Of a DNA stretch of 61,820 nucleotides, positions 21,481-56,790 are shown piece after piece. The DNA is taken from assembly GCA_010093995.1 (NCBI GenBank), contig ML992502.1, positions 1,520,635 to 1,582,454 of the forward strand. The letters run 5' to 3'. The stretch's first letter is position 1. Each line of letters opens with the position of its first letter. The position numbers were made by a program, and so were the translations under genes. The notes beneath the pieces are model-generated. The model saw only the letters and a program-made list of their open reading frames with translations. It searched no databases and was not told where the DNA came from. The stretch comes from Elsinoe ampelina (Eukaryota).

Positions 21481-21998
21481 TGTTACGAACTAGTAGGACA
21501 GCTAAAGCGTAGGGACGTTAGGACTAATTAAACTACTAAGGTTATTACGTAACCTAGCCTAACGTTTACCTAGTTCTCTATCTTCTCTAGCAGCTCTACC
21601 CCGGGGACTATAGAGTACGTAGGTTACTAGCGGACGTATACTCTATATTGCCCCCGACTCTTACTATAGAGCATATAGAGCATATAGAGTACATAGTAAA
21701 GAACATATATATATAGGAGTAGTCCTTACCTTATATAAGTACTATAGTTAACCTCGTCTAGATAGCGAACACTAGTATTGCTAAGGCTAGCCTTTATAAT
21801 ACTATCTAATTGTACTTTATTATCTATAAGACATACCTTCTCCGACTCTTACCTTAGTACTATACTACTATAGAAGTAGAACTACCTCGTTCTTAGCTTA
21901 GCTTAGACTACTAGCGTAGGCTATATTTAGACGGTTCGTAACATTTTAACTACCCTTACTATAGTATAGTACGCTACGAGGTTAATAAGTAACTCTTA

Positions 21999-27967: not shown

Positions 27968-28611
27968 ATTTAGTATATAGCGCGTAAGGATAAGGAAGAA
28001 TACTTACTTATTAGAATAACTTAATTAAGAGAGGAGAGTAATATTACGAACTAGTAGAATAGCTAAAGCGTAGGGATGTTAGGACTAATTAAACTACTAA
28101 GGTTATTACGTGACCTAGCCTAACGTTTACCTAGTTCTCTATCTTCTCTAGCGGCTCTACCCTAGGGACTATAGAGTATATAGGTTACTAGCGGACGTAT
28201 ACTCTATATTACCTCCGACTCTCGCTACGGAGTATATAGAGCATATAGAGTACGTAGTAAAGAACACATATATATAGGAGCAGTCCTTACCTTATATAAG
28301 TACTATAGTTAACCTTATCTAGATAGTAAACACTAGTATTACTAAGGCTAGCCTTTATAATACTATCTAATTATACTTTATTATCTATAAGACATACCTT
28401 CTCCGACTCTTACTTTAGTGCTATACTACTATAGAAGCAGAACTACCTCGTTCTTAGCTTAGCTTAGACTACTAGTGTAGGCTATATTTAGATAGTTTAT
28501 AATATTACTATATACAAGTTATAGCTAAGAGTAGCTAAGAAAGGTTACTAAAGGTGTAGATTATAAAGCATATAAGTAGACAAATTATATAAATACATAA
28601 ATAGGGCAAAG

Positions 28612-34865: not shown

Positions 34866-35666
34866 GTAGTAATATAACTATATTATAAATACGATTTGTA
34901 ATAATGCCTTAGTTCGTACTCTCTACTTATACTAACCTAAATATAGGTGTTAGTGTCCCTAGTATAACCTTTTCTCTCCTCTCTATCTAACCTCGACAAT
35001 AGCTAGCTATCTATTATAATAGATTCCTACGCCTAGTACACTATAATTATTAATTATTATATATACTATAGCGACTCTAATATTTACTTCTACCTCGCTA
35101 TTACTACTACTTCTAATAGTATCCTCTATACTAGCTATGTTATATTTGTAGAATTAACTACTACTAGTACCTAGTAGTTACGCTAGAGCAAATCTATTAT
35201 AGTATACCTCTCTATCTTGCCTACTACGCCGCTATAGGCTTAAGGGTATATAAGGAGACTCCGATATTTCTTTTCTTCTCCCCGCTAGCGCTACTCTTTA
35301 TAGCTTCCTTTACACTAGCTATGTATTATTAGTAGAATTAGCTACTATCTCTACCTAGTAGCTATGACTAACTAAATCTATTACGGAGTATCTCCTAATC
35401 TTATAGATAGCGCTACTAAAGGTTCTAGTGTATAAAAAGAGAGTAGAGGAGCTAGCGTCTACTAGAAATTACCTGCCTTATAGTATAAGAATGTTAAGGG
35501 GAGAATTATAAAGGAATAACTAGTATAACAAAGGGGAAGAGATAAAGGCATATCGCGGGCAAAGATATATCTACTACCTTCTACTAGATAGTAGCTTACT
35601 ATAGAGAGCGTTATAGGCGGAGCTATATTAGTAGTATTCTCTTTTATAATTGCTTTTATAGTAGAG
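34866..35666 (+). repeat. ~800-bp direct repeat R1, copy 1 (copy 2 at 42142-42931)
   Basis: cttatactaacctaaatatagg...ccctagtataaccttttctctcctctctatctaacc... is shared, differing mainly by transitions. Contains an internal ~190-bp-period partial repeat (agaattaactact...cctagtagttacg...aaatctatta). Confidence 0.93.
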
Positions 35667-36424
35667 TTTTATTATTAGTAGTGCTTTATTATAACTTTCT
35701 TACGTTAGTGATATACTTCTTTCTATATAGATTATATACCTGTCGCTTTAATCTCTCTCCTTTAACTAGTAAACAAAATCTCCTTGTCTAATATATATAA
35801 GTATACTATATATCTTTCTTTATTCTTTGTTATTTATCTTATCTCCTATCTACTATAAAGATATTAAGGTTGTTACTTTATACAATAATACTCTTTATTA
35901 AATAGTCCACTAGCTATTTAGAGCATATATAACTTTGTATATAGTACTAATATACAAGTGTTTAGTATAGTTAATTACTTTAATACTAATTTTCTACGAT
36001 AATTAGTACTTATAATATCCTCTAATAGCTATATTTTGTTTGCTTACCTAATTTATACTCTATAATATTTGTTAGTAGTAAACTAACTTATTTACTTTTA
36101 GTTCTAGTATTAACCTAATATTAGTAATTATTATATATTACTATTAGTATATATAAAATATAGACTTAGTTAACTTAGTTTACTTTTAGGTCGAGGCCCG
36201 AACTAGATCTTAGTTATAAGTATACTACTTACTTTAGTATACTATCTTAAATACAAATTTTATTATATTTAAAAAGTTACTACTTACTTTCTACGTAGCA
36301 TTTTAATATTATACTAGGTAGTAGGTATTTATAATTACTACTATTTACTCTATAGCGCTTAACTTACTATACTTAGTTCCTAGCTATATAATCTTAACTC
36401 CTCTAACCTTACCTACCTTATATA

Positions 36425-37759
36425 ATGTCTTTACTAGTAGATATTCTTACACTTATTAAATATATATAATAGTACTATACTGCCGAAGATAAAGAAGCTA
36501 AAGGTCGCTACTAAACCTATAGAAAAGATTCTACTTAATAACCTTATACTAGCTCTTATTAAGAATACGCTTTATAATAATAATATTAGTAAGAAATCTA
36601 TCTAATTCTTCTTTAATTAGGACAACTAGTAATACTCTACTATATTTATAAGGATAAAGGAAATAATCTTAAAAGTCTTTATAGAATCTAATATTAAAAT
36701 TAAGAAATAAGATAGAAGTAAGTTATATAATCCTAAGGTGCTTAAAGCACGCCTTAAAATTAAAACTAGGCTACTAAATAGCACGCCTAACAATTTCTAG
36801 CTCTTTATTAACTAACTAGATTAGAAAGATCTAGACTAGTTTAAGGAGAACTTATAGACTATAGTTAATATTAACAAGATAAAAGCTATATAGCGATTAT
36901 TCTAAAATACTATACAATTAATAAGGGTAAATCTCCTATTAGTTAAAAGGGAAAGAATAACATTACTAGGCAAAGAAGGCACCTAGAGTCTATATCCTTT
37001 AGCTACCTCGTCTATATAGATACTAATACTCTTCTAAGTAAGAACACTATCCTCGGAGAGATATATAACTTATATAAAGACAAGTAATAAGAGATTAGAT
37101 TTATATATATAGCCTTATTATAGAATATTTAGCTTTAACTAGGGGCTAGTATTTAATTATATCTAGATTAATATTAAATTTGCTACGATCTAGATTATAG
37201 AGGTTATCGAAGTAGATACTATCTCGTATCTAATATTAAGAAAGAATATCTACGTCTATAACTTAAGAAAGCCTAGTACTAGCAAGGACAAGAATTGTTA
37301 CGTTAATTACTATATTAGTAAGCTTAGACAGATCCTTAATATTAGAGGTAATTACCTCTAACTCTACTAGCTTAATACGTATAACTCTATATAAGTCTTT
37401 ACTATTAAAGACTCTTTCGATCTAGATGCTACTATTACTAAGTATATTATAACTCTTATCCCTAGTACCTATAAGATCTTTCTTTATCTTACTCCTTCTA
37501 TAGTATCTATTAAAGATCTTCTTAACTTTATATAGAGTAAGTTTACCTCTTCTCTATTTATCTATATATACTAACACTTATAGATAACTCTTATCGATAT
37601 TATAGTAGCTAGCAACTACTTCCTATAGCTAAGGCTACTATAGAAGAGGACTCGGAAGTGTTTCTTACTTCTAAGAAGCTTTACTTTATAGATATTAACA
37701 CTAATAAGAAGTATAAAGGAGATTAGTAGAAAAAGAATATTATAATATAGAACGTTTAA
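36425..37759 (+). pseudogene. Cargo gene X1, unknown family, paralog of X2
   Basis: ATG at 36425. De-RIP FFDQDNQQYSAVFMRTKE (~36607) and FDPDAAIA..I.TL.PG...IFLHLTPS (~37415-37500) match X2 at protein level. Confidence 0.65.
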
Positions 37760-37989
37760 TACCTATAATAGTAATTAAACTACTAAAGGTAAGAGTAGTA
37801 ATACTACTATGTTTTATTTGCTATTATGTTATTTATAAAACTATTTAGTTCTTAACTAATAAAGTTTTATTTAGCTTGTTCTACCTCTAAGAGGCTATAG
37901 CCCCTATAAATCCTATAATTTCTATTATTGTTATTAGAAGTAAACTTACTTAATAGTTCTATAACTATAGCTAGATAGATTCTAACTAA

Positions 37990-39420
37990 CCTAGCGACTT
38001 AGTTTAGGGTATAGTCTTACTTCGTATAGTTTTAGAAAAATATAGCTTCTTCTCCTCTACTAGAAGAATATAGCCTATTTAGACTATAGTATATACCGCC
38101 GAGGCACTATCTATATTCCTATTACTTTAATAGCTTAAAGAATATTATATAAGCTACTATACACCTAAGGCTAGCTATCTATCTAAATAAATATAATCTC
38201 TCGAAGCTCTTTAATACCTCTTCTAAGTTTTACTTTATTACTAGTAACTTTCTATAGCCTGCCTAGTATACTATAACGTATTAGAGTAAAGAGAGTAAGT
38301 CCGAGAAGATAACAACTTACTTCTACTAATATAAGATTAATATTAGTATTAAAAAAGTAATATGTTCTTAATATTATTAACAATAGAAACGAAGTAATAC
38401 TACTATAGATATAATAGACTAGGTCGTTTAATAATAAGTAAAACAAGTTAGTAGGATAGAATCTTATCCCCTATTATAGTAGAAGTAATAGTATAAGTTT
38501 TAGTTCTATACCGAACTTAGAGTTAACTAAATTAAATAAGAATAGTATAGTACTATAAAGGAGCACGTAGGCGTTACTACTAATATAGTTATTAGGCTTT
38601 ACCCTTATATACTAGCGAGGTTTATACGTAGTATACTTAGAGGTTAATAAAGAATTCCCGCTAACTATTATTAGTTCTAGCTACTACCTTCTAATAAATA
38701 GTAGAGACACTTTAGGTTAGGTTATGCCTCTTAACTAAGTATAAACTCTAGTTAGTTTAGTTAGCCTAAAACTAGAAATACGCTTATTTTATATTAGGGT
38801 AGATAAGTCCTTTAAGGGAATACTATAACGCCTAGCTATCTTATACCTCTCCTCGTTAGGTAATTACTACTCGGTATTAGTATAGCTCTACTAACTACAT
38901 ACATAGGTTTAGTATTAAGCTTAATATTTAATATAAAGTTAATTATACTAAGAGAAAGGGATTAGATATTTACTACTTAATAAAGACAGCTTCGATATAG
39001 TAGAGCTAGTCTCTATCTATAGGCAGTAAAGACGTACCTATTATAAAGAATAAGAGAGAATAAACTAGACATAATTTAACTTAATATTACTATATAATAT
39101 AATAAGAGGCAGCTCTCTACCTATACGAAGGTAATATAAGAATAGTTAAAGTCTATTATAGCTCCCTTTTCGTAAATATAATAGTCACTTCTCGTTTCTA
39201 GTTTAAAATCTTTATATTAGTCCCTATATAGATAGCTAAACTTCTATTTATTCCTCTCGACATGTATCTTAACCTAATTATAAAACATCTAGTAGCTATA
39301 TCTACTTTTATGTCTTATTAGGTTTAAGATATTCTTAACTAAGACTTTAAAGTTTTAATTAAGGATAGATATCTTATTTCTTTAGTAGTACTATATATAT
39401 AAATTACTTCGTATATAAGG
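37990..39420 (-). pseudogene. Cargo gene C, unknown (RIP-damaged)
   Basis: Minus-strand codon-structured region. The 64-aa ORF at 38252-38446 looks like a surviving stop-free piece of it. Strand and limits uncertain. Confidence 0.35.
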
Positions 39421-39599
39421 GAGTATACCTTAACTATAATTATAAAGACGCTATATAAGAGAGAGTAGTACGGAATAATATTTATATTTAATAAGTAAAA
39501 GGAACCTAGAGGTAATTATACTAGATATTGTTATAAGCTTACTTTATTTACTTTGCTACTCTACTAGTATAGGAAGAGTAATAACATTAACTAACATTA

Positions 39600-41282
39600 T
39601 AGCAGGGGCTATAGATACTCCTTAGACTTTATACCCCGAGCCGAAGTAGTAGATAAGTATATAGCTAGCGCTATACTAGATTAGGAATATAGAGTCTTTA
39701 TGTTATTATCTCTAAGATTATAGAACGGAAAGCCTATAGTTAGAAGACTAAGAGGTAGTAAAGAATTATTTGTGCGTATAACTCTATAGCGCTAGTAGTA
39801 GCTATAGTAGTTAGTTTAACTTAGTTAGTTTAGTTCGGTTGTTACTAATAAGAGAGCTATATCTATAATAACTTAAGAGAATTCCGAATAGCTAAGCTAT
39901 TAGGATTAGTAAGAGCACTAAAGTTGTTATTATTAATTATAAAGAGGAATTTATAGTAAGCTACGTAGGTATTATTAGAGTAGCTATATCGAAGTAAACT
40001 TACTTCGAGAAGGCTACGCTAGTTAGTTTATAACTAGAAATAGTATATAGTTCTATAACAAGTAGAGTACTAGTGCTTCTACCTTAATAGTGTAACTTCG
40101 CTTAATACAAAGTTAGTATATAGATCTAATTATTATAGTAGACTTCCGATAGTACCTTAGAGAATATAATATTCACTAGCGTAGATATAATAATAGTATT
40201 TATGCTTAAGCTAACTATACTATCCTATTAGCCGAAGAAGTAGATTAACTATAGCTATAATATACCAATGATAATATAGAAGGTTATATAAGATAATATA
40301 GCAAAGTAAACGAACTAAAAGCGTAGTTATTTAAACTAATAGAGAAGTAATAGCAAATTATTAGTTTATCCTTATTAAGATTAGTTAAGGAAACACTTAC
40401 AATTTTTACCTAAAAAGTACTAGTTTCAGTTTAGTAAACTAATTAACTACTCCTAACAGATTAACTATAGGCATAAACGACCTAACGTTATATAGCCGAG
40501 GTATCTTTATATACTACTATTGCTATTTTTTCGTAGAGGCTATTTATAACTAACTTATTATAATACTAGTAACAAGTTAAGACATAAGATAGTAAGAGCT
40601 ATAAATCGTTTACTAGCTAAAATTATTATACCTACGCGGCACTCTCTGTTTTATAATTGCTATAAAAGCCTCTACTAAGGACAATAGCGTAACAATAGCT
40701 AATTAAGTATAGTATTATTTAATATTGTCCTTAAGTAAGAGACAGCTAATAAACTCTATTACCTAGATATATTAGAGTAAACTCTATCTTAACGTGTCTA
40801 GTACTATAGCGTAGATACAATTTTAGCTTTAGTCTACTAATACTATATAATAGCTTAGTTCTATTAGCTCTACTACGAATTATAGTAAATAAGAACTAAA
40901 CTAAGTAACGAGGTAGAAATAATAGTCTATAGCTAGCATAGAGTGTCCTTCCCTCTTTACCTACTATATAGTATAGCATAGTAGATAATTCTCTTAGTCT
41001 CTTTACTAACCTTAACTCTTAATCTCTAGTACGTAGAACAGACAGTAATAGTAATAGTAGGCTTAATAGCGACATACACGAGGAAGAGAAGGGCATAGAT
41101 AAGATTATAATAGGAAGTATATATAAGAAAGAGTAAGTAATTATAGTAAGTATAACTAGTAGTATATCTATAAGGCAAAGTGCTAGGAGGTTATCCTTAT
41201 CTAGTAGAGCTATATCTAATTATACTACGTTTAAGATAGTAACTAGTATACTAGCTAGTAGTAAGGAGTTAGTAATAGACAT
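39600..41282 (-). pseudogene. Cargo gene Y1, unknown, Ser/Pro-rich N-terminus shared with Y2
   Basis: ATG at 41282 inside repeat R2. De-RIP MS.TNSSPPASMPV...SSPPSPSPSVPRARGRE. Downstream extent uncertain. Confidence 0.4.
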
Positions 41283-41340
41283 AGTTTATTCTTAGTTCGC
41301 GTTAACTAATCTTATCTAGATCTCTCTAAGTCTATAATAC
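40830..41340 (+). repeat. ~510-bp direct repeat R2, copy 1 (copy 2 at 48282-48792)
   Basis: agtctatagctagca.agagtgtcctt...gacatacacgaggaagagaagggcatagataag...taagtctataata is shared between the copies. Confidence 0.93.
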
Positions 41341-41717
41341 ATTCTTTGCCCCGAGTGATTAATAAGATATAGCTTAGCTAGAGACTCTCGGCTTAGCGCT
41401 CTAACGTTTAATAAAAGGTAAGCTACTAACTTAGATAGATAATTTTAATTCGAGTTAGATCGTTATAGTAGAAGCGCCTTCTAGTAGAATACACTTGCCG
41501 CGGACTACTAGCCTCTATATAATGTTCTAATAAATCTACTTCTACCTACGTAAGAGTACTAAAGATATATCTAAGTTACATATGTAAAGGCTATAGTAGT
41601 CTAACTAATAGTAAAATAGTATTTACTAGTAGGAAGCTTACTTAGCTTAAATTTAGTAGTATAAATTGTTGCTTTACTCTATCTCTAGCATATTATATAT
41701 AGTAGTAGTAGAGAGTA

Positions 41718-42015
41718 GTCGGCAGGGGACAGCTAGTAGTTTATTATATTAAACTAATAATTTCTTAGTTCTCTCTCTCGAAGTTTAAAGATAACTTAAA
41801 ATTTTAACCTAACTATAGCTGGTAGAGGATAGCTAGTAGTTTATTATATCGAACTAATAATTTCTTAATTCTCTCTCTTAAAGTTTAAAGATAACTTAAA
41901 ATTTTAACCTAACTATAGCCGGCAGGGGATAGCTAGTAGTTTATTACGTCGAACTAATAATGTCTTAGTTCTCTCTCTTAAAGTTTAAGAATAATCTAAA
42001 ATTTTGACCTAACTA
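41718..42015 (+). repeat. Tandem repeat, 3 x 100 bp
   Basis: Units start at 41718, 41818 and 41918 (g.cggcagggga.agctagtagtttatta...aaaattttaacctaacta). Confidence 0.96.
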
Positions 42016-42141: not shown

Positions 42142-42931
42142 GTAGCGATATAACTATATCGTAGATACGATTTACTATAACGCCTTAGTTTACGCTCTTT
42201 GCTTATACTAACCTAAATATAGGCGTTAGCGTCCCTAGTATAACCTTTTCTCTCCTCTCTATCTAACCTTAATAATAGCTAGCTATCTATTATAGTAGAT
42301 CCCCTGCCTAGTAAACTATAATTATCTATTGCTATATATACGATAGTAACTTTAATATTTACTTCTACCTTGCTGTCGCTACTACTTCTAATAGTATCCT
42401 CTATACTAGCTATATCGTGTTTATAGAATTAACTACTGCTAGTACCTAGTAGTTACGCCGGAGTAAATCTATTATAGTATACCTCTCTATCTTGCCTACT
42501 ACGCCGCTATAGGCTTAAGGGTACGTAAGGAGACTCTAATATCTCTTTCCCTCTCCCTACTACTACTACCCTTTATAGCTTCCTTTATACTAGCTACGTA
42601 TTATTAGTAGAACTAACTACTATCTCTACCTAGTAGCTACGACTAAGTAAATCTATCGCGGAGTATCTTCTAATCTTATAGATAGCGCTACTAGAGGTTC
42701 TAGTATACGCGAAGAAAGTAGAGGAGTTAGCGTCTATTAGGAATTATCTACCTTATAGTATAAAAATATTAAGGGAAGAATTATAGAGGAACAACTAGTA
42801 TAATAAAGAGAAAGAGATAGAGGAATATCGTAGGTAAAGATATATCTACTACCTCCTACTAGATAGTAGCTTACTATAGAGGGCATTATAGGCAGAGCTA
42901 TACTAGTAGCGTCCTCTCTTGCTATTACCTT
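42142..42931 (+). repeat. Direct repeat R1, copy 2
   Basis: Matches 34866-35666. Confidence 0.93.
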
Positions 42932-43754
42932 CCTAGTAGAGCTAGGTAAGAAATAAAGCATATTTGTAATTATATAGAATATACTATTAACTACTCGTTC
43001 TGCAGAATATATAGCCTTTACTCTACTCTACTACTTAATTCCGTATATAGTAATTATAAAGTCTAGATAATTAGATAGTAGTATATTACTTTCTTTATTC
43101 CTTTACTAGTATCTATAAGCTATACTATACACTATATATACTATGCCCTTTATTCTGCTATAGGCTACTAACTACCTTCTATTTGTGTTCTATTACTATT
43201 GTCCTTCGTATATAAATACTAGTTTCGCTATTAAAATATTGTTTAATTATTTTATATTAACTACTACTATATTTCCTCTATTTATTAGACTATTATCCCT
43301 TAAGATCTACCCTAAATACGACAATAGTATCCTTAGTATATATAGCATATAAAATAAAAGGTAACTAAGTATATAGACTATAGTTACTCTTAGTTTAGTA
43401 TCTAAACTAAGTAATTTACTATTATATATATACTATATCTAGTATACTACTATATACTTAGTTTAGAGCCTAACCTAAGTTAACTAAATTTAGGTTACTT
43501 CTCTCCTTAATTACTTTAGTTTACCTTTGTTTATACTCTCTTATATATAAATAAATAACTTATATAGCTCTCTAGTATTTCTTTAACCTCTTTAACTTCT
43601 CTTTTAAGCGCTCTTTACTTAAATATCTCCTCTTTAGTTAAGTTTTAGTTAGGCATATATTATAAAGTATATAGACCTACTATGTTAATAAATTCTCTCC
43701 TTAATTCTTCTAAACTTATAAATATATAATACCTTTATAAGATCTCTTCTTTAA

Positions 43755-45100
43755 TATCTACTATACCTACTTAACCTATTTACTAAATATTATTCTAAGC
43801 TTTATTTATAGTATATACTAAGCTTATAGACATATATAATATGTCTAAGAATTAGCTTAATAGCGCTAGTATAGCTACTAATAATATTCCGCTTTATAAA
43901 AGACCTCCTATAGAAATTTAAGTATAGCTTAATAAAAATCTTAAGATTAAGAGATTCTTCCTTAAATTCTTTAACTAGGATAACAACTAGTATACTACTA
44001 TATATATAAGAGCGTAAGAAGAATATAAGAATACCTATATAGTTCTAGGACTTAAATATAAGAAACCTTAGGATAGTAACGTTAATATAACTATAATTAT
44101 AAATAATATTAAAACTTCCCTATAATACTCTTAGAATAACTATACGAAGATCTTCTTTTAAAGACTATACTATTAAGACTAAGACTAGTTTAAGAGGAAC
44201 ATTAGAAACTATAATAATATATCTAGTTATAATATTATTAAAGATTTTGTCCTTACTATTAAGGTATAAAAGCTTAGGAATAAGAAGAATTAGACTAAAG
44301 TAGATAAGAAGGCTTATTCTAAGAAGCACATTAGAAAGTGCCCCTCTACTACCTAGTCTAATAGTAGACTCTCTAAAAGATTAAAGACTTCTATACTTAG
44401 TAGCGGACTTATAGGTATAGATATTAATTACTATACTAGTTAGCCTATACGTTAGTAGTAAATACTAGAGGACATGTCTTATCTAGTCTAGAGTATTATT
44501 AATAAAACTATTATTAACTTTATAATTGTTAAGTAATTAAATATTAGCCCGGGCGTAATTATAAAGAGAGAATATTTATATTATCTATAGGTGTTTAGTC
44601 TAAGAATTTTAAGGTTATATCCGGGGGATTATAATCTAAACGTATATAGCCTTAATAACATTAGGCTATTCCTAAAGGAGAAGAAGTTAGTTAGTAATAA
44701 TATTATTCTTATATAGATAGATTATATAGAGCTATATAATATTCTACCTATCTTAGACAACTACGACCTATATACTACTATAATTAACTATGTTAACTCC
44801 CTAGTTAAAGGTAGTAATATAATCTTTATCTATCTTACGCCTAGTACGGATCTAGTTAAGAAGCTCTCTAAAGAAGTACTTTATAAGTTTAATACTTAGT
44901 TCGACTTAGGTATATACTAATATACTTAGTTAACTCTCTTTAGTATTATAATAGTTAAAAGCTATTAACTCTAGTCTAGAAGGAAGAGAAAGAGAAACCT
45001 CTAGCTCCTCTATCTCTAGCTAAGCGCCTACTACCGCGTAAATCTACTTCTAAGAAGTAACCTAGCTCTCTACTACCTAACAAGAATAATACTACTATTA
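43755..45100 (+). pseudogene. Cargo gene X2, paralog of X1, possibly fused to the downstream SNF2 domain
   Basis: De-RIP FFDQDNNQYAAMYIRAQE (~43967) and YDPYAAMIDYVNSLVEGGNVIFIHLTPG (~44762-44845). Intron-like segment after HLTP at the same place as in X1. Runs through a Pro/Lys-rich linker toward the helicase. Confidence 0.6.
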
Positions 45101-47845
45101 ACAATTGTCCTACTTAGGTAATAGAAGACAAATACTATAAGTAATGCTAAAATAGCAATTAGTATCCCTTTATAATTATACCTAGTAAGAAGTAAGTAAG
45201 GTACTATATTCCGTTAGTCTCTAAGACACTATCTATACCTATTCTAGCGCTTATAACTTGTATATTTAATAAGACTCTTAGTAGCTTAAACTTCGTTAAA
45301 CTTTATACTATAAACAATAACGACAATAAGTAAACTAGTAATAATCTAGCTAACTAAAGCTTTATCTCTATAGGCACTAGAATCAATTACTAGTCTAAAG
45401 AGTTCTAGAAGAGAGTCTATAACTTTATAAGCTTTAAGAAAGACATCTACTTACTAAACGCTAGTATATAGTGTTTTAGTTAGAATAAGAAGTATCTAGT
45501 TAAGGTAGTATAGATGTACTTAGCGCTTATTATACTTAAGAAATACCTCGAAGGCTACCTAGTATTTATATTTATATATAAGATAGAATTTAGAAAGACT
45601 CCGATAGAACTCTTCTTTCTCTTACTAATTTAAAACTTAAATAAAAAGGTTATCTAGGATACTAACTATACTACTATATCTAAGAATAAGTAGAGTAAGT
45701 ACTAGAAGGTAAAGACACTAGTTAATAAGCTATAGCTAGATATTGCTTCTATAGATACTATTAGCTATAATCTAATTATTAGCGGATTAAACGTAATAAA
45801 ATAGTAGGTGTAGAAGATATAAAAGTTTATACCTAATATAAAGGTTGTTCTATACTAGGGAAGAATATTCTAAGCTATATAAGAAGATAAGTATAGCGAT
45901 ATATATAATATAGATACTTTAATTTGCAAAGAGAATCTATCTATAGGCTACCGCTAATAGGAGTCTTAGCTAATAGATAAGTCTAGTAAGCCTATTAACA
46001 CTATTATAGTCTTATAACTAGTCGATATATATAAGTAACACCCCCGGACCTTATAGATAAATAATTAGTTCTTCTTTACTACTTATAACACTATAATCTA
46101 CTACTTCCTTAGTAAGAATAATATAAATACTAAGGATTAGAACTTTGTTCCTAAGGGATAAGAGAGAAAGCTAAGGTCTACGCCTATAAACTAGGCCGCT
46201 ATTATCTTTAATAAGTTCTATTAGGTTACTAGCTAGAAGATATAGACCTAGTGTTATTTAGGAATACTACTAGAGAGGCCTTTTATACTAGGTATAAGTA
46301 GGACACTATTTATTAAGTGCTTAAACATAGTAGCGTTCTTAATAGTAGCTATATATAAGGACTTTAGATTAGAAAAGCTTAATATAAATAGAAGTAAAAT
46401 AGGAGAATTTAATAAGAACTATATCTATAAATCTAAGTAGGAGCTAACTAAGGCTAAGAATAATAAATATTAAGTAACACTAAAGATAACACTAGATAAG
46501 ACTTAATAAGCTATTGCTAATAAGCTTAACTTCTAAATAGTATTAGACTATGCCTTTGTAATTAATAAATAGTATAAGGTAAATAACAACTCTAGTAAGT
46601 TTAATAAAAAGAGAAGTATATAGTTTATAGAAGAGATTATAGCAACGGTCGGTAAATAGAGTACTATCCTTATAAATATTCTTATTAAGATAAATATAAA
46701 CTATATCTAGAAACCTTTCGATACTACTCCCGGTCTACTAGCTATTAGAGTTCTACTATATTCTACCTTTAACTTAGAGATTACTATCGAGGATAAGTAT
46801 CTTTATAGTCTTATAAATATATAGAAGAAGATCGAACAGGATATAGATAAGAGTATATAAGAGGTAATTAATAGGCAAAAGGACAAATCTAATAAGCCTA
46901 AAGTAACATTAGAGATAATCCTTAATAAGAAGACTAAGGAGCAAATACTAAACCTAGTTACGCTACTACTACTTTTCTCTATATTTCTTGCTCTTATAGA
47001 TATATTCTAGAATAATCCCGTAGTTATAGAAGAGTTTAGCAACTTTACTATTAAGTTTGCTTACGAAATTATATATAACTCCTTAGAGATAGCGCTATAG
47101 TAGTATATAGACAAGATCTACGCTAGTTCTTAGATAAAGGTCCTTTATAGTGTTATTTCTAAGATTATTAAGTAGAACGTCTCCTATTCGAAGGAGCTAA
47201 AGAGATAAGTAATTATCTATATATTTACACTATTAGTACTAGTAGTTACTACGATAGTTAGTTTAGTCTATTTAGTCTATTTAGGTTATTACTAATAAGA
47301 GTATAGTATCTAAAATAGCTCGAGAAGTACCTAGACAGCAAAGCAATTAGGATTAATAAGGATACTAATATAGTTGTTGTCTACTATAGAATAACATCTA
47401 TACCTGCCTATATAGACATTATTAACATAGCTATGTCTAATAATACGTTTATTAAACCTAATAGGCCGGAAGGCTTAAGGATCTTAATTACCTAGAGTAG
47501 AGCTATTAAGACTAGTCTTAATCTAAACTACTTCGATACTATAATCTTACTCGATATAGCGTTAGTATTATAATCCGTCCTTTAGTATCTAGCTTAGGTC
47601 TATAGAAATATTAAGTCTTAGAAAGCTAACTATATAGAGGCGTTTATAATAAAGCTAATAGCTTTGTTCTATAGGCCTCTAGAATAGCTTAATAGTAGAT
47701 AGAGTAGGCTATCGATAATATAAAAGGTCATTTATAAGGAAATAGAGAAGTAGAGGGCAGAGATCTAGAAACTTTAATAAGCTATAGCAAAGAAGAATAT
47801 AATTATTATAGATAATAATTAAGATTACTAGATAATAGTCTAACT
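45100..47845 (+). pseudogene. SNF2-family (SF2) helicase/ATPase cargo gene, RIP-inactivated
   Basis: Ordered de-RIP motifs: Walker A IF(A)HEMGFGKT (~45568-45600), Ia I.SGLNV..QW..K..KF.P..KVV.Y.G (~45775-45860), Walker B I.FDEFH (~46201-46221, ttt aat aag ttc tat), V/VI ETGLNL..FDT.ILLD......LQHLARVHR (~47505-47607). Confidence 0.82.
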
Positions 47846-48281
47846 ATATTACCTAAAAATATAATTCTTTAGTTTAGTAGACTAATTTAGTTCCCTATAT
47901 ATGTTAAACTATCTTTTAGATTACCTAATATAATATAGTATCTAAACGTTTCTTACTTTCTACTATCGCTAAAATTTAGCTAGCTAACTCTAACTACAAA
48001 TTTAGATCTTAAGTAATAAATATAGATATACTAAGGCAAATTAGTAAATGCTTAGCCTACGGGAAGATTATATAATCTAGTAAAGGCCTTATCTAATATC
48101 TACTATATTACTAGAGGAGAGAGCTACTAATAAGTAATATAGCGTAAGTCTTACTAGAGTAATATAGCAATAGACATCTACGTAGAGATAATACTAGTAA
48201 TAATCCTTACTTATTTAATAAGGGAAAGTACTTACTATCTAATAAAGGCTAACGAGGTAGTATTACTAGTAATGTACGACA

Positions 48282-48792
48282 TAGTCTACTAATACTAAAT
48301 AACCTACTAGTCTACTTTACTCCGCTACAAATAATAGTAACTAAGAATTAAACTAAACACTAGAGTAGAAACGAAAGTCTATAGCTAGCAGAGAGTGTCC
48401 TTTCCCCTTTGCCTACTATATAGTATAGTATAGTAGATAATCCTCTTAGTCTCTTTACTAACCTTAACTCTTAACCTCTAGCACATAGAATAGATAGTAA
48501 TAGTAATAGTAGGCTTAATAGCGACATACACGAGGAAGAGAAGGGCATAGATAAGGTTATAATAGAAGGCATACACGAGAAAGAGTAAGTAATTATAGTA
48601 AGTACAACTAGTAGCATATCTATAGGGCGAAGTACTAGGAGGTTATCCTTATCTAGTAGAGCTATATCTAATTATACTACGTTTAAGATAGCTACTAGTA
48701 TACTAGCTAGTAGCGAAGAGTTAGTTATAGACATAGTTTATTCTTAGTTTACGTTAACTAATCTTGTCTAGATCTCCTTAAGTCTATAATAT
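48282..48792 (+). repeat. Direct repeat R2, copy 2 (contains minus-strand ATG at 48734 of paralog Y2)
   Basis: Matches 40830-41340. Confidence 0.93.
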
Positions 48793-48859
48793 ATATACTA
48801 ACACTAACGATAAACTAAATTATAATTAGTTAGGCGAGACTTAACTAAAGTAAGCCTTT

Positions 48860-51565
48860 ATTAGTAGTATAGACGTAGGTCTTGCCTAGTAGCTTATAAA
48901 GGAGAAACTTAGTAGAGCTATAATTACGTAATTACTTAAAGATCTATATATATAACCTCTAGTAGAGAGCCTTAGTTAGTAAACTACGAATAAACTAACA
49001 AAGAAGATAGAGAATTTAGATACAGGCGGGGGTATTAATAGCTAGTAGACCTTAAGCTTTATACTAAATACTAATTGTAGGTCTAAAAGATATACGTTCT
49101 AGTATCTAGATATTCTTATAGCAATACGCTTCTTGCTTAGCTATTATAGTTTCGTAGTAGACATAGACTATAGCCTATATAGAGTCTTTATAGAAGCTGT
49201 TAAGAGTAAGCTACTATAACAAGTATACACTAAAATAGTAAGTAGCGACTAGTAGTAGAACACACAAAAGCGACTTAGGATACTAGGGGCTACTATTATC
49301 CTATTAATCGTCGTAAGTAATTAGACCTAAGTAATAAACTATTAAGGAGATCTTATAGTATATACTATCTATCTATTATTAGGTAACCTAAAGGTAGAAG
49401 CACGTAATAGCAACTACTAGCTAGGGTAGTTACTAATTAGCTTACTTCCTATTATTAAAGATAGTAGTAATATTATTAAGGAGAAGACCTACTACACTTA
49501 TATAAAGAAAATCTTTAACGCCGTTATTAATTGCTACTTAAGAGAAGGTAAAATAATCTCCTATATAAATAGAAAGAGGTAGAGGTACTTCTCTATACTT
49601 ACTACTATATCTACGAATTACGCTAAATAGGTTACTATAACTAGTGTAAAGTCACTATATTATTATATAAGTTACCTAATTGGTAAGGACGAAAGAGAGG
49701 ACCTAGTAGTTACTATACTATTCTAAACTTACTACTCTACGTAGCAATAATAGCGCTTATAGAGAGAAGTATATAAGAGTTAGTAGCGAGGTAAGAAGAT
49801 AGATATAAGCTCTTAGGTTTATATAGTTAGTTACTTTACATAGGATCTTCTATATACTAATATTTACTACGTAATAGTACTAGATATTCTATACTAACTT
49901 CTTAAAGGCGTTTTAATATATATCTTATACTAGACTTAAAAATTGCTCTAGAATTTAATGCCTATATAGAGATTACTATAGTATATAAAGGCTAGAGAGA
50001 CTATGTAGCGAATAGACTACTAGTGCTTAGTAAAGAAGATTATACTTAATATTATTAACAAGTATTTCGATAGTATACTAGTGTTTCCTAGCATCCGATA
50101 CTTCTTATACTACTTAGCTATTAAGCAATAGACAGGTTAAGAGTAGAAGAGTATTATACGCTAGATACTTCTAGTATTTATACTACTACTTAAGGAGGTT
50201 AAGGCACCTTAAGCTATTAAGTTTATACGCGTACTAGTTAACTTTATATTACTAGTGAACTATAAGACCTATAATAACGATATACTCTAGTATATTAACC
50301 TTGCGCTCTTTAGGATAAACAAGTATAAAGAAACCTTTTAGGCCTATTATAGTAATAGGAAAGAAGAGAGTAACTTTAACTTTCCGAAATAGTACTTAAT
50401 AATATATTTTTTAAAGGCTATCTATAATTTCGGAGTAGTTACTAGCCTCGATTCTAATTATTTAAAGCATAATTATATATACTTTATTAAGGACGCCTTT
50501 AAACTTATAAATAAGAAGGCTAGATAGAAAGACTAGATTACTACTTATAACACTAAACTAGTAAACATGTTAGTAGTATTTAATAACCCCTCGAAGTTAG
50601 TTAGGCTATTAGCTACTAAACTAATTAAGATCTAGCGTACGCTAGTTAGCGTAAGTAATATAGTAAACGTCACTTCTTAGTTTAGCTAGCCTAGCACTAA
50701 GGAGAAGGCTATATAGCGTATAGTAAGAGAACTAGAGGCGCTTATTAATATACTACCTAGGCTATTACTATAGTAAGTAATAGCAGTGTTTGTCCGCGAG
50801 GCTTGTTAAGGTATAGCTAATATAGGCTCTAACTTAAGAACTAAATACTCTAATTAGTTTAATGCTAAACTAGATCCCGATAGACTCGAACTAGATTCTT
50901 CCTAGGTAAGTAACCTCTATATTAAGTTCTACTATTCTTTAAAGTATAGGAAACTATCCGACTATAATTCTAATAATTCTAATATAGACAAATAAGACTT
51001 TATCTAGTGTATAACTAAATAGTAAGAGATACGTAGCAATAAGAGGCAAGACTAGCTCTAGGTATAAGAATAGATAACAAATAACAAAGGCACTAACGGA
51101 GTATTACCTAATAGCCTATAAGGTAAGTTACTAGCTTATATTATATTTATAATAACTATAGAGGATAGCTTCTAGTCTAGTAGATCGGGCCGGCGTTAAC
51201 GCCTATACTACATAGGAGCGCTAGTAGATCTATATTAGCCTACTCGGCCGGATAGAGTAGCTAATTAAGAGTATAGTATAACACTAATTAAGCCTTAGAC
51301 AAATCAACGCACGCGAGCTAGACGAAATACTCTTACTAGTAGGCATATCTACTTTACCTTATAAATCTACTATAGTATCTATATTATACTAGTAGATAAA
51401 ATAAAGCTATATAGCTAGATATATATTAATAACATAGCCGACTTTAATATATATAATATGCTATAGAATAAGTTATAGAAGTCTAAATAGCTCTACCTAG
51501 CTAAGGCTTTAAAACGAGAGAGGTTAAGATCCCTAGGTATAGTTAGTAAGCGTAGTAGGCATTAA
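48860..51565 (+). pseudogene. Plavaka-family transposase (RIP-inactivated)
   Basis: De-RIP VYTEMASGDWWWNTQKRL..PGATIIPLIVASDQTQVTNHQGDL.AY.IYLSLGNL (~49223-49390), CADGKRRRCFPILAA...YAEQ (~49560-49630), PDILHQLLKGVL (~49880), FNFPKWHL..HF...I..FG...G.DS..SEH.H..FVKDAF..TNK (~50375-50515). These are the characteristic Plavaka motifs. Start approximate. Confidence 0.88.
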
Positions 51566-51899: not shown

Positions 51900-53972
51900 A
51901 GTAGTAAAAGGCTTAGGTTAGTAAGTTATCTTTAGGTTAGTTTTACTAACGGAGTTAGTAGTCTAAGAGGAAAGTTTATTCTCTATAATAAGTTTACTAA
52001 TAAGACTCTAATATAGACGATAGTACTTTACTCTATTTACTATTATATCGTAGAGATCTACTCGATGCTACTAGAGTAGTTACTAAGGACTTATTCCTTT
52101 CTATCTAATAGATAAGATCTATAATAACACTAGCTTAGAAGACCTGCTAGGGAATATTCTTATTAATCTCTATATATATACTATACACAGGAAATAAGTT
52201 AAGAAAGAAGCTACTCTTTAGTATAGTAAGTAGCCTCTTCCTTGTCCTCTAAAGTCTCCTTTATATCTATGTAGGTTATAAGTATTTCCTTATAAGATTA
52301 TTAGTGTATAATATATATATAACAAATCCTGTCTATAAGATTATATACTAGATTATTCTACATGCGCTATTACTATAACTACTACTTAGTAGTAGTAATA
52401 GTAGAGTAGCGGGATATAGTAGGAAAAAGTGTTATTATATCTACCTCTAAGAGAGAGATACTCTCTTTCTCCTCTATACCTTTCTCCTTGCTCTCCGCTA
52501 TAGTAAGGTATACTATAACTAAAGCTACTACTACCGCTTCCTCCGTAACTACTATTACTTATATATAGCTATAACTACGAGTTATTACTAGAAGCTTAGT
52601 ACGCGTTAGAGTGACTTTATCTTTAATATATAGCAATAAAGTGCTACGATCTTAACCTAGACACTGCCTTTATTACCTCTCTAACGACTACCGTAACTAG
52701 CGCTAAGAGCTAGTAAGATAAGAAGTATACTACCTCTACCTTCGCTAGTGTCTATAGCTATGCTAGTATTAAGCTTAGTAAGGTAGAGGAGAAGAGTAAG
52801 AAGCTAAAGGAGCCTCTTATTATTACTAATTACCTCCTTGCTAATAACCTTATAGATAGATAGTTAGAGTAGATCTTAAACTTTCTAGAAAGAGTATTTA
52901 CTTCTCCGCTATAATTGTCTTTAAGCTGTCGTTTAGACTACTATATCCTTAGTACTATCTCCGGGGCTACTTAGATACTATACTAATGTCTATTAGATCT
53001 TACTTTTCTAGGTAGTCTTTTATAGCTTTAGAATTATCCTTCTAGTAGGTATACTATTCCGTGTAAGTAGACGAGGAATTAGCTTAGCCTAAACTAAATG
53101 TCTATTACATTTCCTATACCTGTCTATATTAGTATTAATTTTCTTAGAATAGGCTATAGCCTTACTACTATAGCTACTATTAACGTAGTATATCTAGCTC
53201 TTATTATTATTCTTTTCCTACGTTACTAACGACTTCTAAGTACTAGAATAGGTCTATAGGTATTTATACTTAATGTTGTAACTATACTTAGCTATAATAA
53301 TTAAGTCCTTCTTAGGAAAAGCTTCCTTACATCTATAAGCCTAAGTTATAAACGCTCCTTTATAAGCTTGTTTTATATTGTTAATAATATAGGCCACTAG
53401 ATAGTAGAATGTCACGAACTATCTAAATATAGTCTACGCTAGTAGTCTAAGCTAAGCTAAGAACGAGGTAGTTCTACTTCTATAGTAGTATAGTACTAAG
53501 GTAAGAGTTGGAGAAGATATGTCTTATAGATAATAAAGTACGATTAGATAGTATTACAAAGGCTAGCCTTAGCAATACTAGTGTTCGCTATCTAGACAAG
53601 GTCGACTATAGTACTTATATAAGGTAAGGACTGTTCCTATATACATGTGTTCTTTACCGTGTGCTCTATATACTCTATATGCTCCGTAGCGAGAGTCGGG
53701 GGCAATATAGAGTATACGTCTACTAGTAACCTACGCGCTCTATAGTTTTAGGGGTAGAGCCGCTAGAGAAGATAGAGAACTAGGTAAATGTTAGGCTAGG
53801 TCACGTAATAACCTTGGTAGTTTAATTAGTCCTAACGTCCCTATGCTCTAGCTATTCTACTAGTTCGTAACATAGAACTTATAGGCTATAGGGCAATATA
53901 GGCGCTTTTTGTTAGTATTAACCTTTGTTGCTAGCTATATAGTTACGCGAAAGTGCTTATCTTTAGAGACAT
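51900..53972 (-). pseudogene. Unknown gene convergent with the Plavaka transposase, interrupted by a solo LTR
   Basis: ATG at 53972. Codon-structured minus strand with a Gly/Arg-rich tract (~52470-52590) on de-RIP. No family recognised. Confidence 0.4.
53410..53872 (-). mobile_element. Solo LTR of the Gypsy-3 family (463 bp)
   Basis: Reverse complement of 21481-21943, with tgtcacgaac...gttcgtaaca ends. 5-bp TSD TAGAA at 53405-53409 and 53873-53877. Confidence 0.96.
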
Positions 53973-55909: not shown

Positions 55910-56790
55910 CCTACCCTATCTAGATACTCTATTATAAATTCTTCTATTAAGCCTTATAAAGTCTCTTCTCTTTATATAACAAATATGTAGTGCTAATTAT
56001 ATCACTCTAAGTGCTACTAGATATCTAGATAAATTGTAAGTTTTAGTCTTACTTCTAAGGCTACGTTAGTGCTCTTTATAGTACTTATATCTACGCTTAT
56101 GTTCTTAGTAAGCAATTAGCTTAGAGAGATTAAAAAGGTAGCCTATTATAGAATATATTAGCAGTTATAAACTATAAGATAAAGTTTACCTACCTATTAC
56201 TAGGATAGAAGAGATCTACATATAATACTTAAGTACTTACTAACGCTTATACTAAGGGCTTCTCTACTCTAGAAGGCGCTTATTATCTCGCCGATACTAG
56301 ATATAGCAATTAGATTAACATCTTAGTACTCTATCGAGGTGTAAGGTACTACCTCTATAAATATAAGGCTACTAACTAATAGCCTTAAAGTCTAAAAGAG
56401 CTCTTTAATTTATACTACTTATAACTCTATACTATTGTTAAAAGAAGCTTTAGATTACTTAAAAGGTAGTAGCAGATACTAGATAAGTGATTTAAGTTCC
56501 CTTTAATACTTACGTAGGTGTAAATAGTATACTATCTAGCTATGCTTTATAACCTTTTACTAAGTATCTAGGTATCTATCTATCTTAAGGAGGAGAGAGA
56601 GAAGAAGAAGAAGAAGAAGGTCTCTAAGCCTATTAGCTATCTAATAGGTAAAGGGGAGCTAAATTTAAGTAACATATATATAGTTAAATATCGTAATAAG
56701 ATAGCTAAGAATATATAGCGTAACTACTAGCTTAAGCTATAGTAGCGCTAAGGTCGATAGAAAGGGGTAGTAAATAATATAGTATAATTA
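55910..56790 (+). pseudogene. Harbinger (DDE_Tnp_4/HARBI1-like) transposase, N-terminus missing
   Basis: De-RIP FQGCVGAL.GTHI, WRDRKG..SQNVLAV, GWEGSAHDAQVL, YLADAGY, PYRGVRYHL, KELFNLRHSQLR.IVERSFGLLKRRWQIL. Confidence 0.92.

What the first reader, a model, noticed from the sequence alone, without database searches (positions are those of the whole stretch)
45100..47845. SNF2-family chromatin-remodeller-like ATPase as transposon cargo next to the transposase
Seen: SNF2 motifs I, Ia, II (DEFH), V and VI in the correct order, about 1 kb upstream of the Plavaka transposase, with unusual long inserts and an apparent N-terminal link to unknown domain X2. Known: SNF2 ATPases translocate on dsDNA and remodel chromatin. 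Inference: an element-encoded accessory for transposition into, or expression from, heterochromatin rather than a recently captured host gene, because the motifs are divergent.
Basis: partly seen in the sequence, partly recalled or inferred. Interest (0 to 1): 0.75.

Follow-up and report, generated by a model that had tools for sequence, protein, structure and literature searches.

The report
Dead SNF2-like ATPase in Plavaka transposon
A mutation-riddled relic of an SNF2-type DNA-dependent ATPase sits just upstream of a Plavaka transposase, and intact relatives in the fungus Aureobasidium pullulans show the same pairing, so this transposon lineage seems to carry its own remodeller-like motor.

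Summary
The window is saturated with RIP-type C-to-T/G-to-A mutation. Ordinary searches see only the Plavaka transposase.

A codon-level scorer that allows for RIP gave three results:
- An SNF2 profile has its best match of the whole window at nt 45772-45924 (30.7 bits). 0 of 40 null chunks reach it. z is 7.2, against -0.5 to 1.3 for DEAD and ResIII profiles.
- A stepwise protein search led to A. pullulans THV91127.1 and THV79365.1, whose single gene models carry both SNF2-rel_dom and Plavaka domains.
- Their ATPase part aligns colinearly to nt 45388-47684 (88 bits; background 24 or less). Motifs I, Ia, II (DEFH), III, IV, V and VI are each reachable from the window's codons by RIP transitions.

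The transposase maps to nt 48851-51529 on the same strand (549 bits). The window copy is dead: 57 stops and one frameshift.

The conserved pairing supports an element-borne gene. Its function is only inferred, element ends were not found, and one metagenome relative has a different arrangement. No SNF2 cargo of Plavaka appeared in the papers I could search.

The parts
45388..47794 (+). RIP-inactivated SNF2-like ATPase gene relic (both RecA-like lobes). Frame nt mod 3 = 1 up to about 47334, then frame 0.
   Evidence: RIP-aware alignment to P0003/P0002 residues about 622-1438: 88.1 bits to nt 47684 and 104.6 bits to nt 47794. Background is 24.1 or less. There are 53 stops in matched codons and 4 in inserted codons.
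45586..45600 (+). Motif I (Walker A). The window reads EFRKT where the homologue has GLGKT.
   Evidence: Every difference is a G-to-A or C-to-T transition.
45766..45861 (+). SNF2-specific block Ia, through the 'YxG' that ends it.
   Evidence: Best match of a bacterial SNF2 profile in the whole window on both strands: 29.6-30.7 bits, 0 of 40 null chunks reach it, Gumbel p about 1e-4. Aligned to P0003 residues 744-764.
46210..46221 (+). Motif II (Walker B, DExH). The window reads NKFY where the homologue has DEFH.
46297..46308 (+). Motif III. The window reads SRTL where the homologue has SGTP.
47203..47226 (+). Block IV strand at the start of the C-lobe. The window reads R*VIIYIF where the homologue has RKVVIVAF.
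47334..47335 (+). The single frameshift inside the ATPase relic.
   Evidence: from the alignment path.
47478..47555 (+). Motif V block (window RILIT*SRAIKTSLNLNYFDTIILLD).
   Evidence: SNF2 profile block V scores 14.2, null maximum 12.9, 0 of 40 reach it. Aligned to P0003 residues 1345-1359.
47583..47606 (+). Motif VI. The window reads *YLA*VYR where the homologue has QISGRVRR.
   Evidence: Not detected with the bacterial SNF2 profile.
48851..51529 (+). RIP-inactivated Plavaka transposase gene, nearly full length, in one frame.
   Evidence: Pfam PF18759, E 2.1e-19, at nt 48986-49915. RIP-aware alignment to P0001 columns 16-953, 548.6 bits, no frameshift, - strand maximum 24.8.
48282..48794 (+). 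Block Y: the stretch just upstream of the transposase start, repeated at 40830-41342.
   Evidence: 88.5% identity, and 97.3% when only purine/pyrimidine is compared.
42142..42941 (+). Block X: the stretch 2.4 kb upstream of the ATPase homology, repeated at 34866-35666.
   Evidence: 86.3% identity, and 98.6% in purine/pyrimidine space.
34866..41382 (+). Unit A: a second X...Y unit in tandem. Its interior is only weakly colinear with unit B, it has no detectable SNF2 signal, and no transposase follows it.
   Evidence: tblastx colinear patches at 37395-37649/44741-44995 and 39707-40009/47154-47456. SNF2 and P0003 scores are at noise level.

Best explanation
Nt 45388-47794 is the RIP-killed remnant of a gene for a divergent SNF2-like (superfamily 2, DExH) DNA-dependent ATPase. 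It belongs to a Plavaka-lineage DNA transposon. It lies on the same strand as the element's DDE transposase (nt 48851-51529) and about 1 kb upstream of it.

Shown:
- Homology and colinearity with an intact protein family in Aureobasidium pullulans, in which the ATPase and the Plavaka transposase are neighbours and are annotated as one 1972- or 2292-residue protein.
- The intact relatives keep the Walker A (GLGKT), DEFH, SGTP and QxxGRxxR motifs, so they look catalytically able.
- The window copy is a pseudogene.

Inferred mechanism: in live elements the ATPase acts as a double-strand DNA translocase made by the element itself. It would work with the transposase, either by clearing or sliding nucleosomes at the element ends or target, or by opposing chromatin silencing of the element. 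It would do this either as a separate protein or, if the predicted splice is real, as an ATPase-transposase fusion. Nothing here tests that activity.
For: 1. RIP context: TpA/ApT is 1.92, (CpA+TpG)/(ApC+GpT) is 0.22, GC is about 0.30.

2. SNF2 profile with RIP-aware scoring:
- The top hit of the whole window, on both strands, lies inside the claimed interval: 29.6-30.7 bits, against null maxima of 21.3-23.5 over 40 and 44 chunks, Gumbel p about 1e-4.
- z is 7.2, against -0.2 (HsdR/ResIII), 1.3 (small ResIII) and -0.5 (DEAD).
- The block chain scores 111.8 against a null of 67.4 +/- 5.6; 0 of 211 null segments reach it.

3. Method control: P0001 aligns to the transposase at 548.6 bits in one frame.

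4. Intact relatives:
- P0002 (THV91127.1) and P0003 (THV79365.1) carry PF00176 (34.4-34.6 bits, cut-off 24.9) and PF18759.
- P0004 and P0005 are ATPase-only open frames with PF00176 at 36.5-36.7 bits.

5. Window against P0003:
- ATPase part: 88.1 bits (104.6 with looser gaps), background 24.1 or less.
- Peaks are colinear from P0002 column 696 at nt 45612 to column 1970 at nt 50386, with none of 24 bits or more on the - strand.
- Two further relatives hit the same place: the L165 paralogue at 41.6 bits and L166_c at 33.2 bits.

6. Motifs I, II and III differ from the homologue only by G-to-A or C-to-T changes. Motifs Ia, IV, V and VI align at the expected places.

7. Family assignment of the intact relatives:
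- hhalign against a bacterial SNF2 core gives probability 92.2%, E 5.8e-7, against 0.6-7.6% for DEAD and ResIII alignments.
- The language-model look-alikes are SNF2-rel_dom + Helicase_C clusters, with a top score of 0.95.
Against: - Standard searches on the window give no SNF2 hit: Pfam E up to 10, PDB E up to 10, 1.84 billion proteins at E up to 0.001.
- With the bacterial SNF2 profile only blocks Ia and V are individually significant. Blocks Q, I, Ib, II, III, IIIa, IV, IVa and VI are not (empirical p 0.07-0.61).
- The intact relatives match only positions 1-91 of 290 of PF00176. Helicase_C is below its cut-off (16.6-16.8 against 23.5). They lack the WNP and RIGQ signatures of block VI and have no PDB hit by sequence.
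- Only 118 of 714 matched codons are identical to P0003 and 94 more are reachable by RIP, so the relation is distant.
- No terminal inverted repeats or target duplications were found, so 'inside the element' is not shown directly.
- Unit A, which shares blocks X and Y, shows no ATPase signal and has no transposase.
- In metagenome locus L165 the ATPase is followed by a second ATPase paralogue, not by a transposase, within the 1.5 kb available.
- The named evidence for linkage comes from one species (two records). The single gene model there may be two merged genes: ATPase-only frames of 854 and 912 residues belong to the same cluster, and in L165 the long open frame is closed by a stop at nt 12577.
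Confidence: 0.8

Rival explanations
1. The ATPase belongs to a separate repeat unit (X...interior...Y, about 6.5 kb, present twice in tandem as units A and B). This unit only happens to lie beside a Plavaka transposase. The ATPase would then be the passenger of another element, or of a non-autonomous one.
For: - Blocks X and Y are repeated with sharp borders, at 98.6% and 97.3% identity in purine/pyrimidine space, while the interiors barely align.
- Unit A ends at 41382, which matches B position 48834, close to where the transposase homology begins. No transposase follows unit A.
- In L165 the ATPase gene is followed by another ATPase paralogue.
Against: - ATPase followed by transposase on one strand is seen both in the window and in the A. 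pullulans gene models, at about 30% ATPase identity (counting RIP-reachable codons). This is hard to get by chance neighbourhood.
- X and Y are related to each other neither directly nor as inverted repeats, so they do not look like element termini.
Confidence: 0.12
2. It is the relic of an ordinary host SNF2 gene, captured once or mutated by RIP spreading from neighbouring repeats.
For: - RIP can spread into adjacent single-copy DNA (recalled knowledge, not tested here).
- No close homologue was found with the window's own translation.
Against: - The nearest intact relatives are joined to a Plavaka transposase.
- The family is unlike canonical host SNF2 proteins: partial PF00176 match and no PDB hit.
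- One metagenome contig holds two paralogues in tandem and another holds a copy broken by a retroelement, as expected of repeats.
- The whole 62-kb window is repeat debris.
Confidence: 0.05
3. There is no gene: the motifs are chance matches in AT-rich sequence.
For: Standard profile and sequence searches are blank. A permissive gap model can chain noise into a false full-length alignment.
Against: Scores are 64 bits or more above every control: the other strand, the rest of the window, a reversed profile and other helicase families. Three independent intact relatives hit the same place.
Confidence: 0.02

Closest known systems
SNF2 family ATPases (Pfam SNF2-rel_dom PF00176 plus Helicase_C; Snf2, Rad54 and RapA types)
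   Same: - Intact relatives pass the PF00176 cut-off.
- The Q-I-Ia region aligns to a bacterial SNF2 core (hhalign 92%).
- They have a DExH box, an SGTP motif III and a QxxGRxxR motif VI.
- The language-model neighbours are all SNF2-rel_dom + Helicase_C clusters.
   Different: - Only the first third of the PF00176 profile matches.
- About 150 extra residues lie between Ia and II, and there is a long insert between III and IV.
- Helicase_C is below its cut-off.
- Block VI lacks the WNP and RIGQ signatures (these names are recalled, not from a call).
- No solved structure is found by sequence.
- It is encoded next to, or fused with, a transposase.
Plavaka (EnSpm/CACTA-like) DNA transposons with accessory genes
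   Same: A DDE transposase of family PF18759 is accompanied by a second gene with a chromatin- or DNA-related activity. TET/JBP dioxygenases are reported in fungal Plavaka (PMC12730594, passages read). PAG1-3 are reported in red-algal Plavaka (bioRxiv 10.1101/2025.02.11.637652, passages read).
   Different: Here the accessory gene is an SNF2-like ATPase. Those two papers name no SNF2 or helicase cargo for Plavaka: SNF2 has 0 occurrences in the first and 1 in the second, in a passage that was not shown to me. The fungal families reconstructed in the first paper are from Agaricomycotina. The named relatives here are from an ascomycete.
Helicase-bearing DNA transposons (Helitron with Pif1-like helicase; AcademH)
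   Same: The element encodes its own nucleic-acid motor besides the transposase. For Helitron this is stated in PMC12730594 (passage read). For AcademH it is recalled; only a search listing was seen.
   Different: The motor family is different (SNF2-like rather than Pif1 or other helicases), and so is the transposase family. No strand-separating role is implied for SNF2-type enzymes.

Membership tests
SNF2 family (PF00176) | Match to the Pfam SNF2-rel_dom profile over the curated cut-off | tested here: inconclusive
   The window read with X at stops gives no hit at E up to 10. Intact relatives P0002-P0005 and the L165 and L166 open frames score 30.1-38.8 bits, over the cut-off of 24.9, but only on profile positions 1-91 of 290.
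SNF2 family (PF00176) | SNF2-specific block Ia (LVVxPxSLxxNWxxExxKF...YxG) | tested here: met
   RIP-aware score 29.7 bits at nt 45769-45861, with 0 of 40 null segments reaching it. hhalign of the intact relatives against an SNF2 core gives 92.2% over Q-I-Ia. DEAD and ResIII profiles give z of -0.5 to 1.3.
SNF2 family (PF00176) | Walker A (GxGKT) and DExH box | tested here: met
   The relatives have GLGKT and DEFH. The window's EFRKT and NKFY differ from them only by RIP transitions. As a relic these sites are not functional in the window.
SNF2 family (PF00176) | C-terminal helicase lobe (Helicase_C, motifs IV-VI) | tested here: inconclusive
   PF00271 scores 16.6-16.8 bits, below the cut-off of 23.5, in P0004 and P0005. 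Motif V is significant in the window (14.2, 0 of 40 null segments). QxxGRxxR is present.
SNF2 family (PF00176) | Block VI signatures DxxWNP and RIGQ (recalled consensus) | tested here: not met
   P0003 reads DTGWIIQMLIQISGRVRRAEMSQ. The bacterial SNF2 block VI scores at noise level in the window.
SNF2 family (PF00176) | Two-lobe SNF2 fold with helical protrusions | not testable with these tools
   Structure prediction did not accept jobs. The Atlas holds no model.
Plavaka transposase (PF18759) | Match to the Pfam profile over its cut-off, and full-length homology to a Plavaka transposase | tested here: met
   70.4 bits against a cut-off of 26.3, E 2.1e-19. 548.6-bit RIP-aware alignment to P0001, which itself scores 223.9 bits on PF18759.
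Accessory gene of a DNA transposon | Lies between the element's terminal repeats | tested here: inconclusive
   No inverted terminal matches above chance, even in purine/pyrimidine space. The 3' end of the element is not defined.
Accessory gene of a DNA transposon | Linkage to the transposase conserved in diverged copies | tested here: met
   The window and the A. pullulans models share the order ATPase then transposase on one strand. The exception is L165. Only one named species besides the window was examined.

The most novel reading that the evidence does not exclude
A lineage of Plavaka DNA transposons in ascomycetes carries its own SNF2-like chromatin or DNA motor. In some copies there are two paralogues, and the motor may be spliced to the transposase as one protein. 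The element would need this motor to reach nucleosomal ends or targets, or to resist heterochromatic silencing. That would be a kind of transposon accessory function not described in the papers I could search, next to the TET/JBP demethylases already known for this superfamily.
Probability: 0.4. Interest if true: 0.8.

Novelty: new variant of a known kind. Interest (0 to 1): 0.62.

Why it matters
Cut-and-paste transposons must work on chromatin, yet very few are known to bring their own chromatin or DNA motor. If a Plavaka lineage carries an SNF2-like ATPase that stays linked to the transposase through deep divergence, it points to a way for a transposon to open or escape silent chromatin. It would stand beside the TET/JBP demethylases found in related elements.

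The intact A. pullulans genes (THV79365.1, THV91127.1) make this directly testable.

On method: a gene invisible to Pfam, PDB and a 1.84-billion-protein search was recovered by scoring codons under a RIP model and by walking from the neighbouring transposase to an intact relative. The same route should work on other RIP-degraded regions.

Tried and rejected
Searches on the window that found nothing for the ATPase:
- Pfam with X at stops over 42-51 kb in all six frames, and on short pieces. Only Plavaka was found.
- phmmer against PDB.
- Word-indexed protein search of the C-lobe.
- Exhaustive phmmer of nt 44941-47340 against 1.84 billion proteins: 0 hits at E up to 0.001.

Scoring variants I dropped:
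- An empirical-codon null inflated the background to 57-72 bits.
- A DP with nearly free insertions chained noise into a false full-length alignment.

Motif calls I corrected or rejected:
- My first motif II call, 'LIDKS' at about 45969, was wrong. The intact homologue puts DEFH at 46210-46221.
- 'VKT' at about 45733 as Walker A, seen by eye, was rejected.

Other negatives:
- Unit A shows no SNF2 or P0003 signal.
- The N-terminal 620 residues of P0003, and the N-terminal frames of L165 and L166, give nothing significant in the window. The Atlas look-alike for P0002 residues 1-430 scored only 0.78.
- Terminal inverted repeats: only chance-level matches.
- A metagenome scan with P0001 found no relative.
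- NCBIfam has no hit for P0004. PHROGs gives only 'DNA helicase'.
- Sequencing runs: two DNA holders from one study under a coded organism, and no RNA holder listed.
- Structure prediction did not accept jobs, so there is no fold test.
- The whole genome is not held.
- Earlier findings of this scan: none.
- Iyer et al. 2014 (PMC3918813), which named Plavaka, is not held. I could not check whether it mentions an SNF2 partner.
Full report
**Setting.** The whole 61.8-kb window has about 30% G+C and no long open frames. It carries a saturated RIP signature: TpA/ApT is 1.92 and (CpA+TpG)/(ApC+GpT) is 0.22, with CpA and TpG at 0.21-0.22 of expectation. It is a patchwork of dead repeats. There are several pairs of direct and inverted repeats, a weak Harbinger-type DDE match at about 56.1-56.6 kb and a Copia-type RT relic near 60 kb. 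No whole genome is held for the window. This scan has no earlier notes on it.

**What ordinary tools see.** With stops read as X, Pfam finds one thing in 42-51 kb across six frames. It is a Plavaka transposase (PF18759, E 2.1e-19, 70.4 bits) at nt 48986-49915 on the + strand. It finds no SNF2 or helicase domain, even on short pieces at E up to 10. The other searches were also blank:
- phmmer against PDB;
- a word-indexed search of 5.8 billion proteins;
- an exhaustive phmmer of nt 44941-47340 against 1.84 billion representatives.

By these tools alone the claim would fail.

**A scorer that allows for RIP.** I collected canonical bacterial SNF2 genes. 171 of 401 genomes searched had a match at E up to 1e-30. 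I took the 30 best loci, all scoring over 250 bits on PF00176, and built a 462-column core profile from all 30. I then scored every window codon by the likelihood of its possible pre-RIP codons. A T before A may have been C, and an A after T may have been G (posterior 0.35). Other T and A sites were given 0.06. The local alignment allowed frameshifts.

Results with the SNF2 profile:
It covers nt 45772-45924 and SNF2 columns 65-111, at 29.6-30.7 bits.
- The null maxima are 21.8 (rest of the window, 40 chunks) and 23.5 (reversed profile, 44 chunks). Gumbel p is about 1e-4.
- The few parameter settings I tried gave 27-31 bits.
- In an ungapped block test, block Ia scores 29.7 (null maximum 13.4, 0 of 40 reach it) and block V scores 14.2 at nt 47478 (null maximum 12.9, 0 of 40).
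- The colinear chain of 11 blocks scores 111.8, against 67.4 +/- 5.6 with maximum 83.6 (0 of 211 reach it). With the block order reversed it scores 75.2.
- The other nine blocks are not individually significant (empirical p 0.07-0.61).
- Profiles built the same way for other helicase families give z of -0.2 (15 HsdR/ResIII loci), 1.3 (10 small ResIII loci) and -0.5 (25 DEAD loci). SNF2 gives 7.2.

So the signal is specific to SNF2, but with this profile it is partial.

**Finding an intact relative.** The transposase region, read with X at stops, found P0001. This is a 963-residue Plavaka-only protein (E 7.8e-32). Scored with the RIP-aware method, P0001 aligns to nt 48851-51529 over its columns 16-953. 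The alignment stays in one frame, has no frameshift and scores 548.6 bits. The - strand maximum is 24.8. This both maps the transposase gene and serves as a positive control for the method.

A search for longer relatives of P0001 returned one protein, P0002. It is THV91127.1, a hypothetical protein of Aureobasidium pullulans, 1972 residues, with Pfam Plavaka and SNF2-rel_dom. Its 90% cluster holds three more members:
- P0003 (THV79365.1, 2292 residues, same architecture);
- P0004 (854 residues), an ATPase-only frame;
- P0005 (912 residues), an ATPase-only frame.

In P0004 and P0005, SNF2-rel_dom scores 36.5-36.7 bits against a cut-off of 24.9. ResIII, DEAD and Helicase_C are below their cut-offs.

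**The window against the intact relative.** P0002 gives a run of colinear peaks on the + strand, from column 696 at nt 45612 to column 1970 at nt 50386. No peak of 24 bits or more appears on the - strand.

The ATPase part of P0003 aligns to nt 45388-47684 at 88.1 bits, with one frameshift at 47334/5. With looser gaps it reaches 104.6 bits and nt 47794. The rest of the + strand gives at most 24.1 and the - strand at most 20.8.

The motifs sit as follows:

| Motif | Homologue | Window reads | nt |
|---|---|---|---|
| I | GLGKT | EFRKT | 45586-45600 |
| Ia | PTLVVSTPKLTQVWVQEIRQF | YNLIISGLNVIK**V*KI*KF | 45766-45828 |
| II | DEFH | NKFY | 46210-46221 |
| III | SGTP | SRTL | 46297-46308 |
| IV | RKVVIVAF | R*VIIYIF | 47203-47226 |
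| V | SGLSLTPADVVIALD | TSLNLNYFDTIILLD | 47511-47555 |
| VI | QISGRVRR | *YLA*VYR | 47583-47606 |

In motifs I, II and III every difference is a G-to-A or C-to-T transition. My own first placement of motif II at about 45969 was wrong, because this family has about 150 extra residues between Ia and II.

Of 714 matched codons, 118 are identical to P0003, 94 more are reachable by RIP and 502 are not. There are 53 stops in matched codons and 4 in inserted codons. The window copy is a long-dead and distant member of the family. Two further intact relatives hit the same place: a paralogue in L165 at 41.6 bits and L166_c at 33.2 bits.

**What the intact family is.**
- hhalign of the intact relatives against the bacterial SNF2 core gives probability 92.2%, E 5.8e-7, over 89 columns (Q motif, I, Ia). 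It gives 0.6% for DEAD, 7.6% for HsdR/ResIII and 5.4% for small ResIII.
- The language-model neighbours of P0002 residues 600-1530 are SNF2-rel_dom + Helicase_C clusters, with a top score of 0.95. They are mostly giant-virus and phage helicases, plus one basidiomycete cluster.
- Against full membership: only positions 1-91 of 290 of PF00176 match. Helicase_C is below its cut-off. Block VI lacks the WNP and RIGQ signatures (recalled consensus). No solved structure is found by sequence. A fold test could not be run.

I therefore call it SNF2-like, not a canonical SNF2 remodeller.

**Is it part of the transposon?** Evidence for:
- Same strand, with about 1.06 kb between the ATPase and transposase homologies.
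- The same order in the A. pullulans models, although only about 30% of ATPase codons are identical or RIP-reachable, and 46% transposase identity between P0001 and P0003.
- Copies that behave like repeats. One is broken by a Copia-like insert in L166. Another stands beside host MFS and Piwi genes at the end of a 76.6-kb metagenome contig in L165.

Evidence against, or still open:
- No terminal repeats were found.
- The single gene model in A. pullulans may be a merge of two genes. ATPase-only frames of 854 and 912 residues belong to the same cluster. In L165 the 1489-residue frame is closed by a stop at nt 12577. Its last 48 homologous residues resume about 0.5 kb later.
- In L165 the ATPase is followed by the start of a second ATPase paralogue (32% identity to P0003 residues 584-699), not by a transposase, within the 1.5 kb that remain.
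- The window itself holds two tandem units, A (34866-41382) and B (42142-48834). They share nearly identical end blocks X and Y (98.6% and 97.3% in purine/pyrimidine space), but their interiors are only weakly colinear. Unit A shows no ATPase signal and has no transposase.

I cannot explain the contrast between the end blocks and the interiors. It keeps alive the rival that X...Y is a unit of its own.

**Mechanism.** Shown: homology, motif integrity in the intact relatives, linkage to the transposase, and inactivation in the window. Inferred from what SNF2-type enzymes generally do (double-strand DNA translocation that moves or removes nucleosomes; established knowledge, not tested here): the element's ATPase helps the transposase reach its ends or targets in chromatin, or counters silencing. 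This would parallel the proposed role of TET/JBP genes in related elements (PMC12730594, abstract and passages read).

**Literature.** I searched the held library for these term sets:
- Plavaka with SNF2;
- Plavaka alone;
- SNF2 with EnSpm and transposase;
- SNF2 with the KDZ names, CACTA and Mutator-like;
- Plavaka with helicase.

I read passages of four papers. None describes an SNF2 or helicase gene in Plavaka. The founding paper (Iyer et al. 2014) is not held, and supplements were not consulted, so prior mention cannot be excluded.

**Verdict.** It is a new variant of a known kind, namely an accessory gene of a DNA transposon.

Noticed in passing
window 34866-35666 / 42142-42941 and 40830-41342 / 48282-48794: Two blocks (X, Y) are 98.6% and 97.3% identical once RIP transitions are ignored. 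The 5.2-5.3 kb between them is barely alignable, and the borders are sharp. This could reflect a mosaic, gene conversion, or shared cis regions. It is unexplained.
   Followed up: partly
window 41716-42015: Three tandem copies of a 100-bp unit (86-90% identity) lie in the 0.7-kb gap between unit A and unit B.
   Followed up: no
window 21481-21948, 28041-28506 (direct) and 53405-53873 (inverted): A repeat of about 465 bp occurs three times. The two direct copies are 6.56 kb apart and 100% identical in purine/pyrimidine space, like the LTRs of a RIP-mutated retrotransposon.
   Followed up: no
window 8622-8825, 13667-13877 (direct), 16152-16357 (inverted): Another repeat family of about 205 bp (85-95% identity), with two direct copies 5.05 kb apart.
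   Followed up: no
window about 56149-56553 (+) and about 59.6-60.0 kb (-): A weak DDE_Tnp_4 (Harbinger-type) match, E 0.015, and an RVT_2 (Copia-type) match, E 2e-5. Both are below the Pfam cut-offs, and both are further dead elements.
   Followed up: no
window 44741-44995 versus 37395-37649: This is the best-conserved protein-level patch between units B and A upstream of the ATPase (39% over 85 residues; '..IF.YLTPS..'). It has no match in the N-terminal part of the A. pullulans protein.
   Followed up: partly
L165 8108-14060: In a fungal metagenome contig, a 1489-residue open frame (N-terminal region plus ATPase, 91% identical to P0004) is followed at once by the start of a second ATPase paralogue of 32% identity. 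MFS transporter and Piwi-domain host genes lie upstream on the other strand.
   Followed up: partly
L166 2620-6620: A relative of the ATPase with 63% identity is cut off after about 290 residues. It is followed by Copia-like Pol_BBD and integrase frames, so it is a copy disrupted by a retroelement.
   Followed up: no
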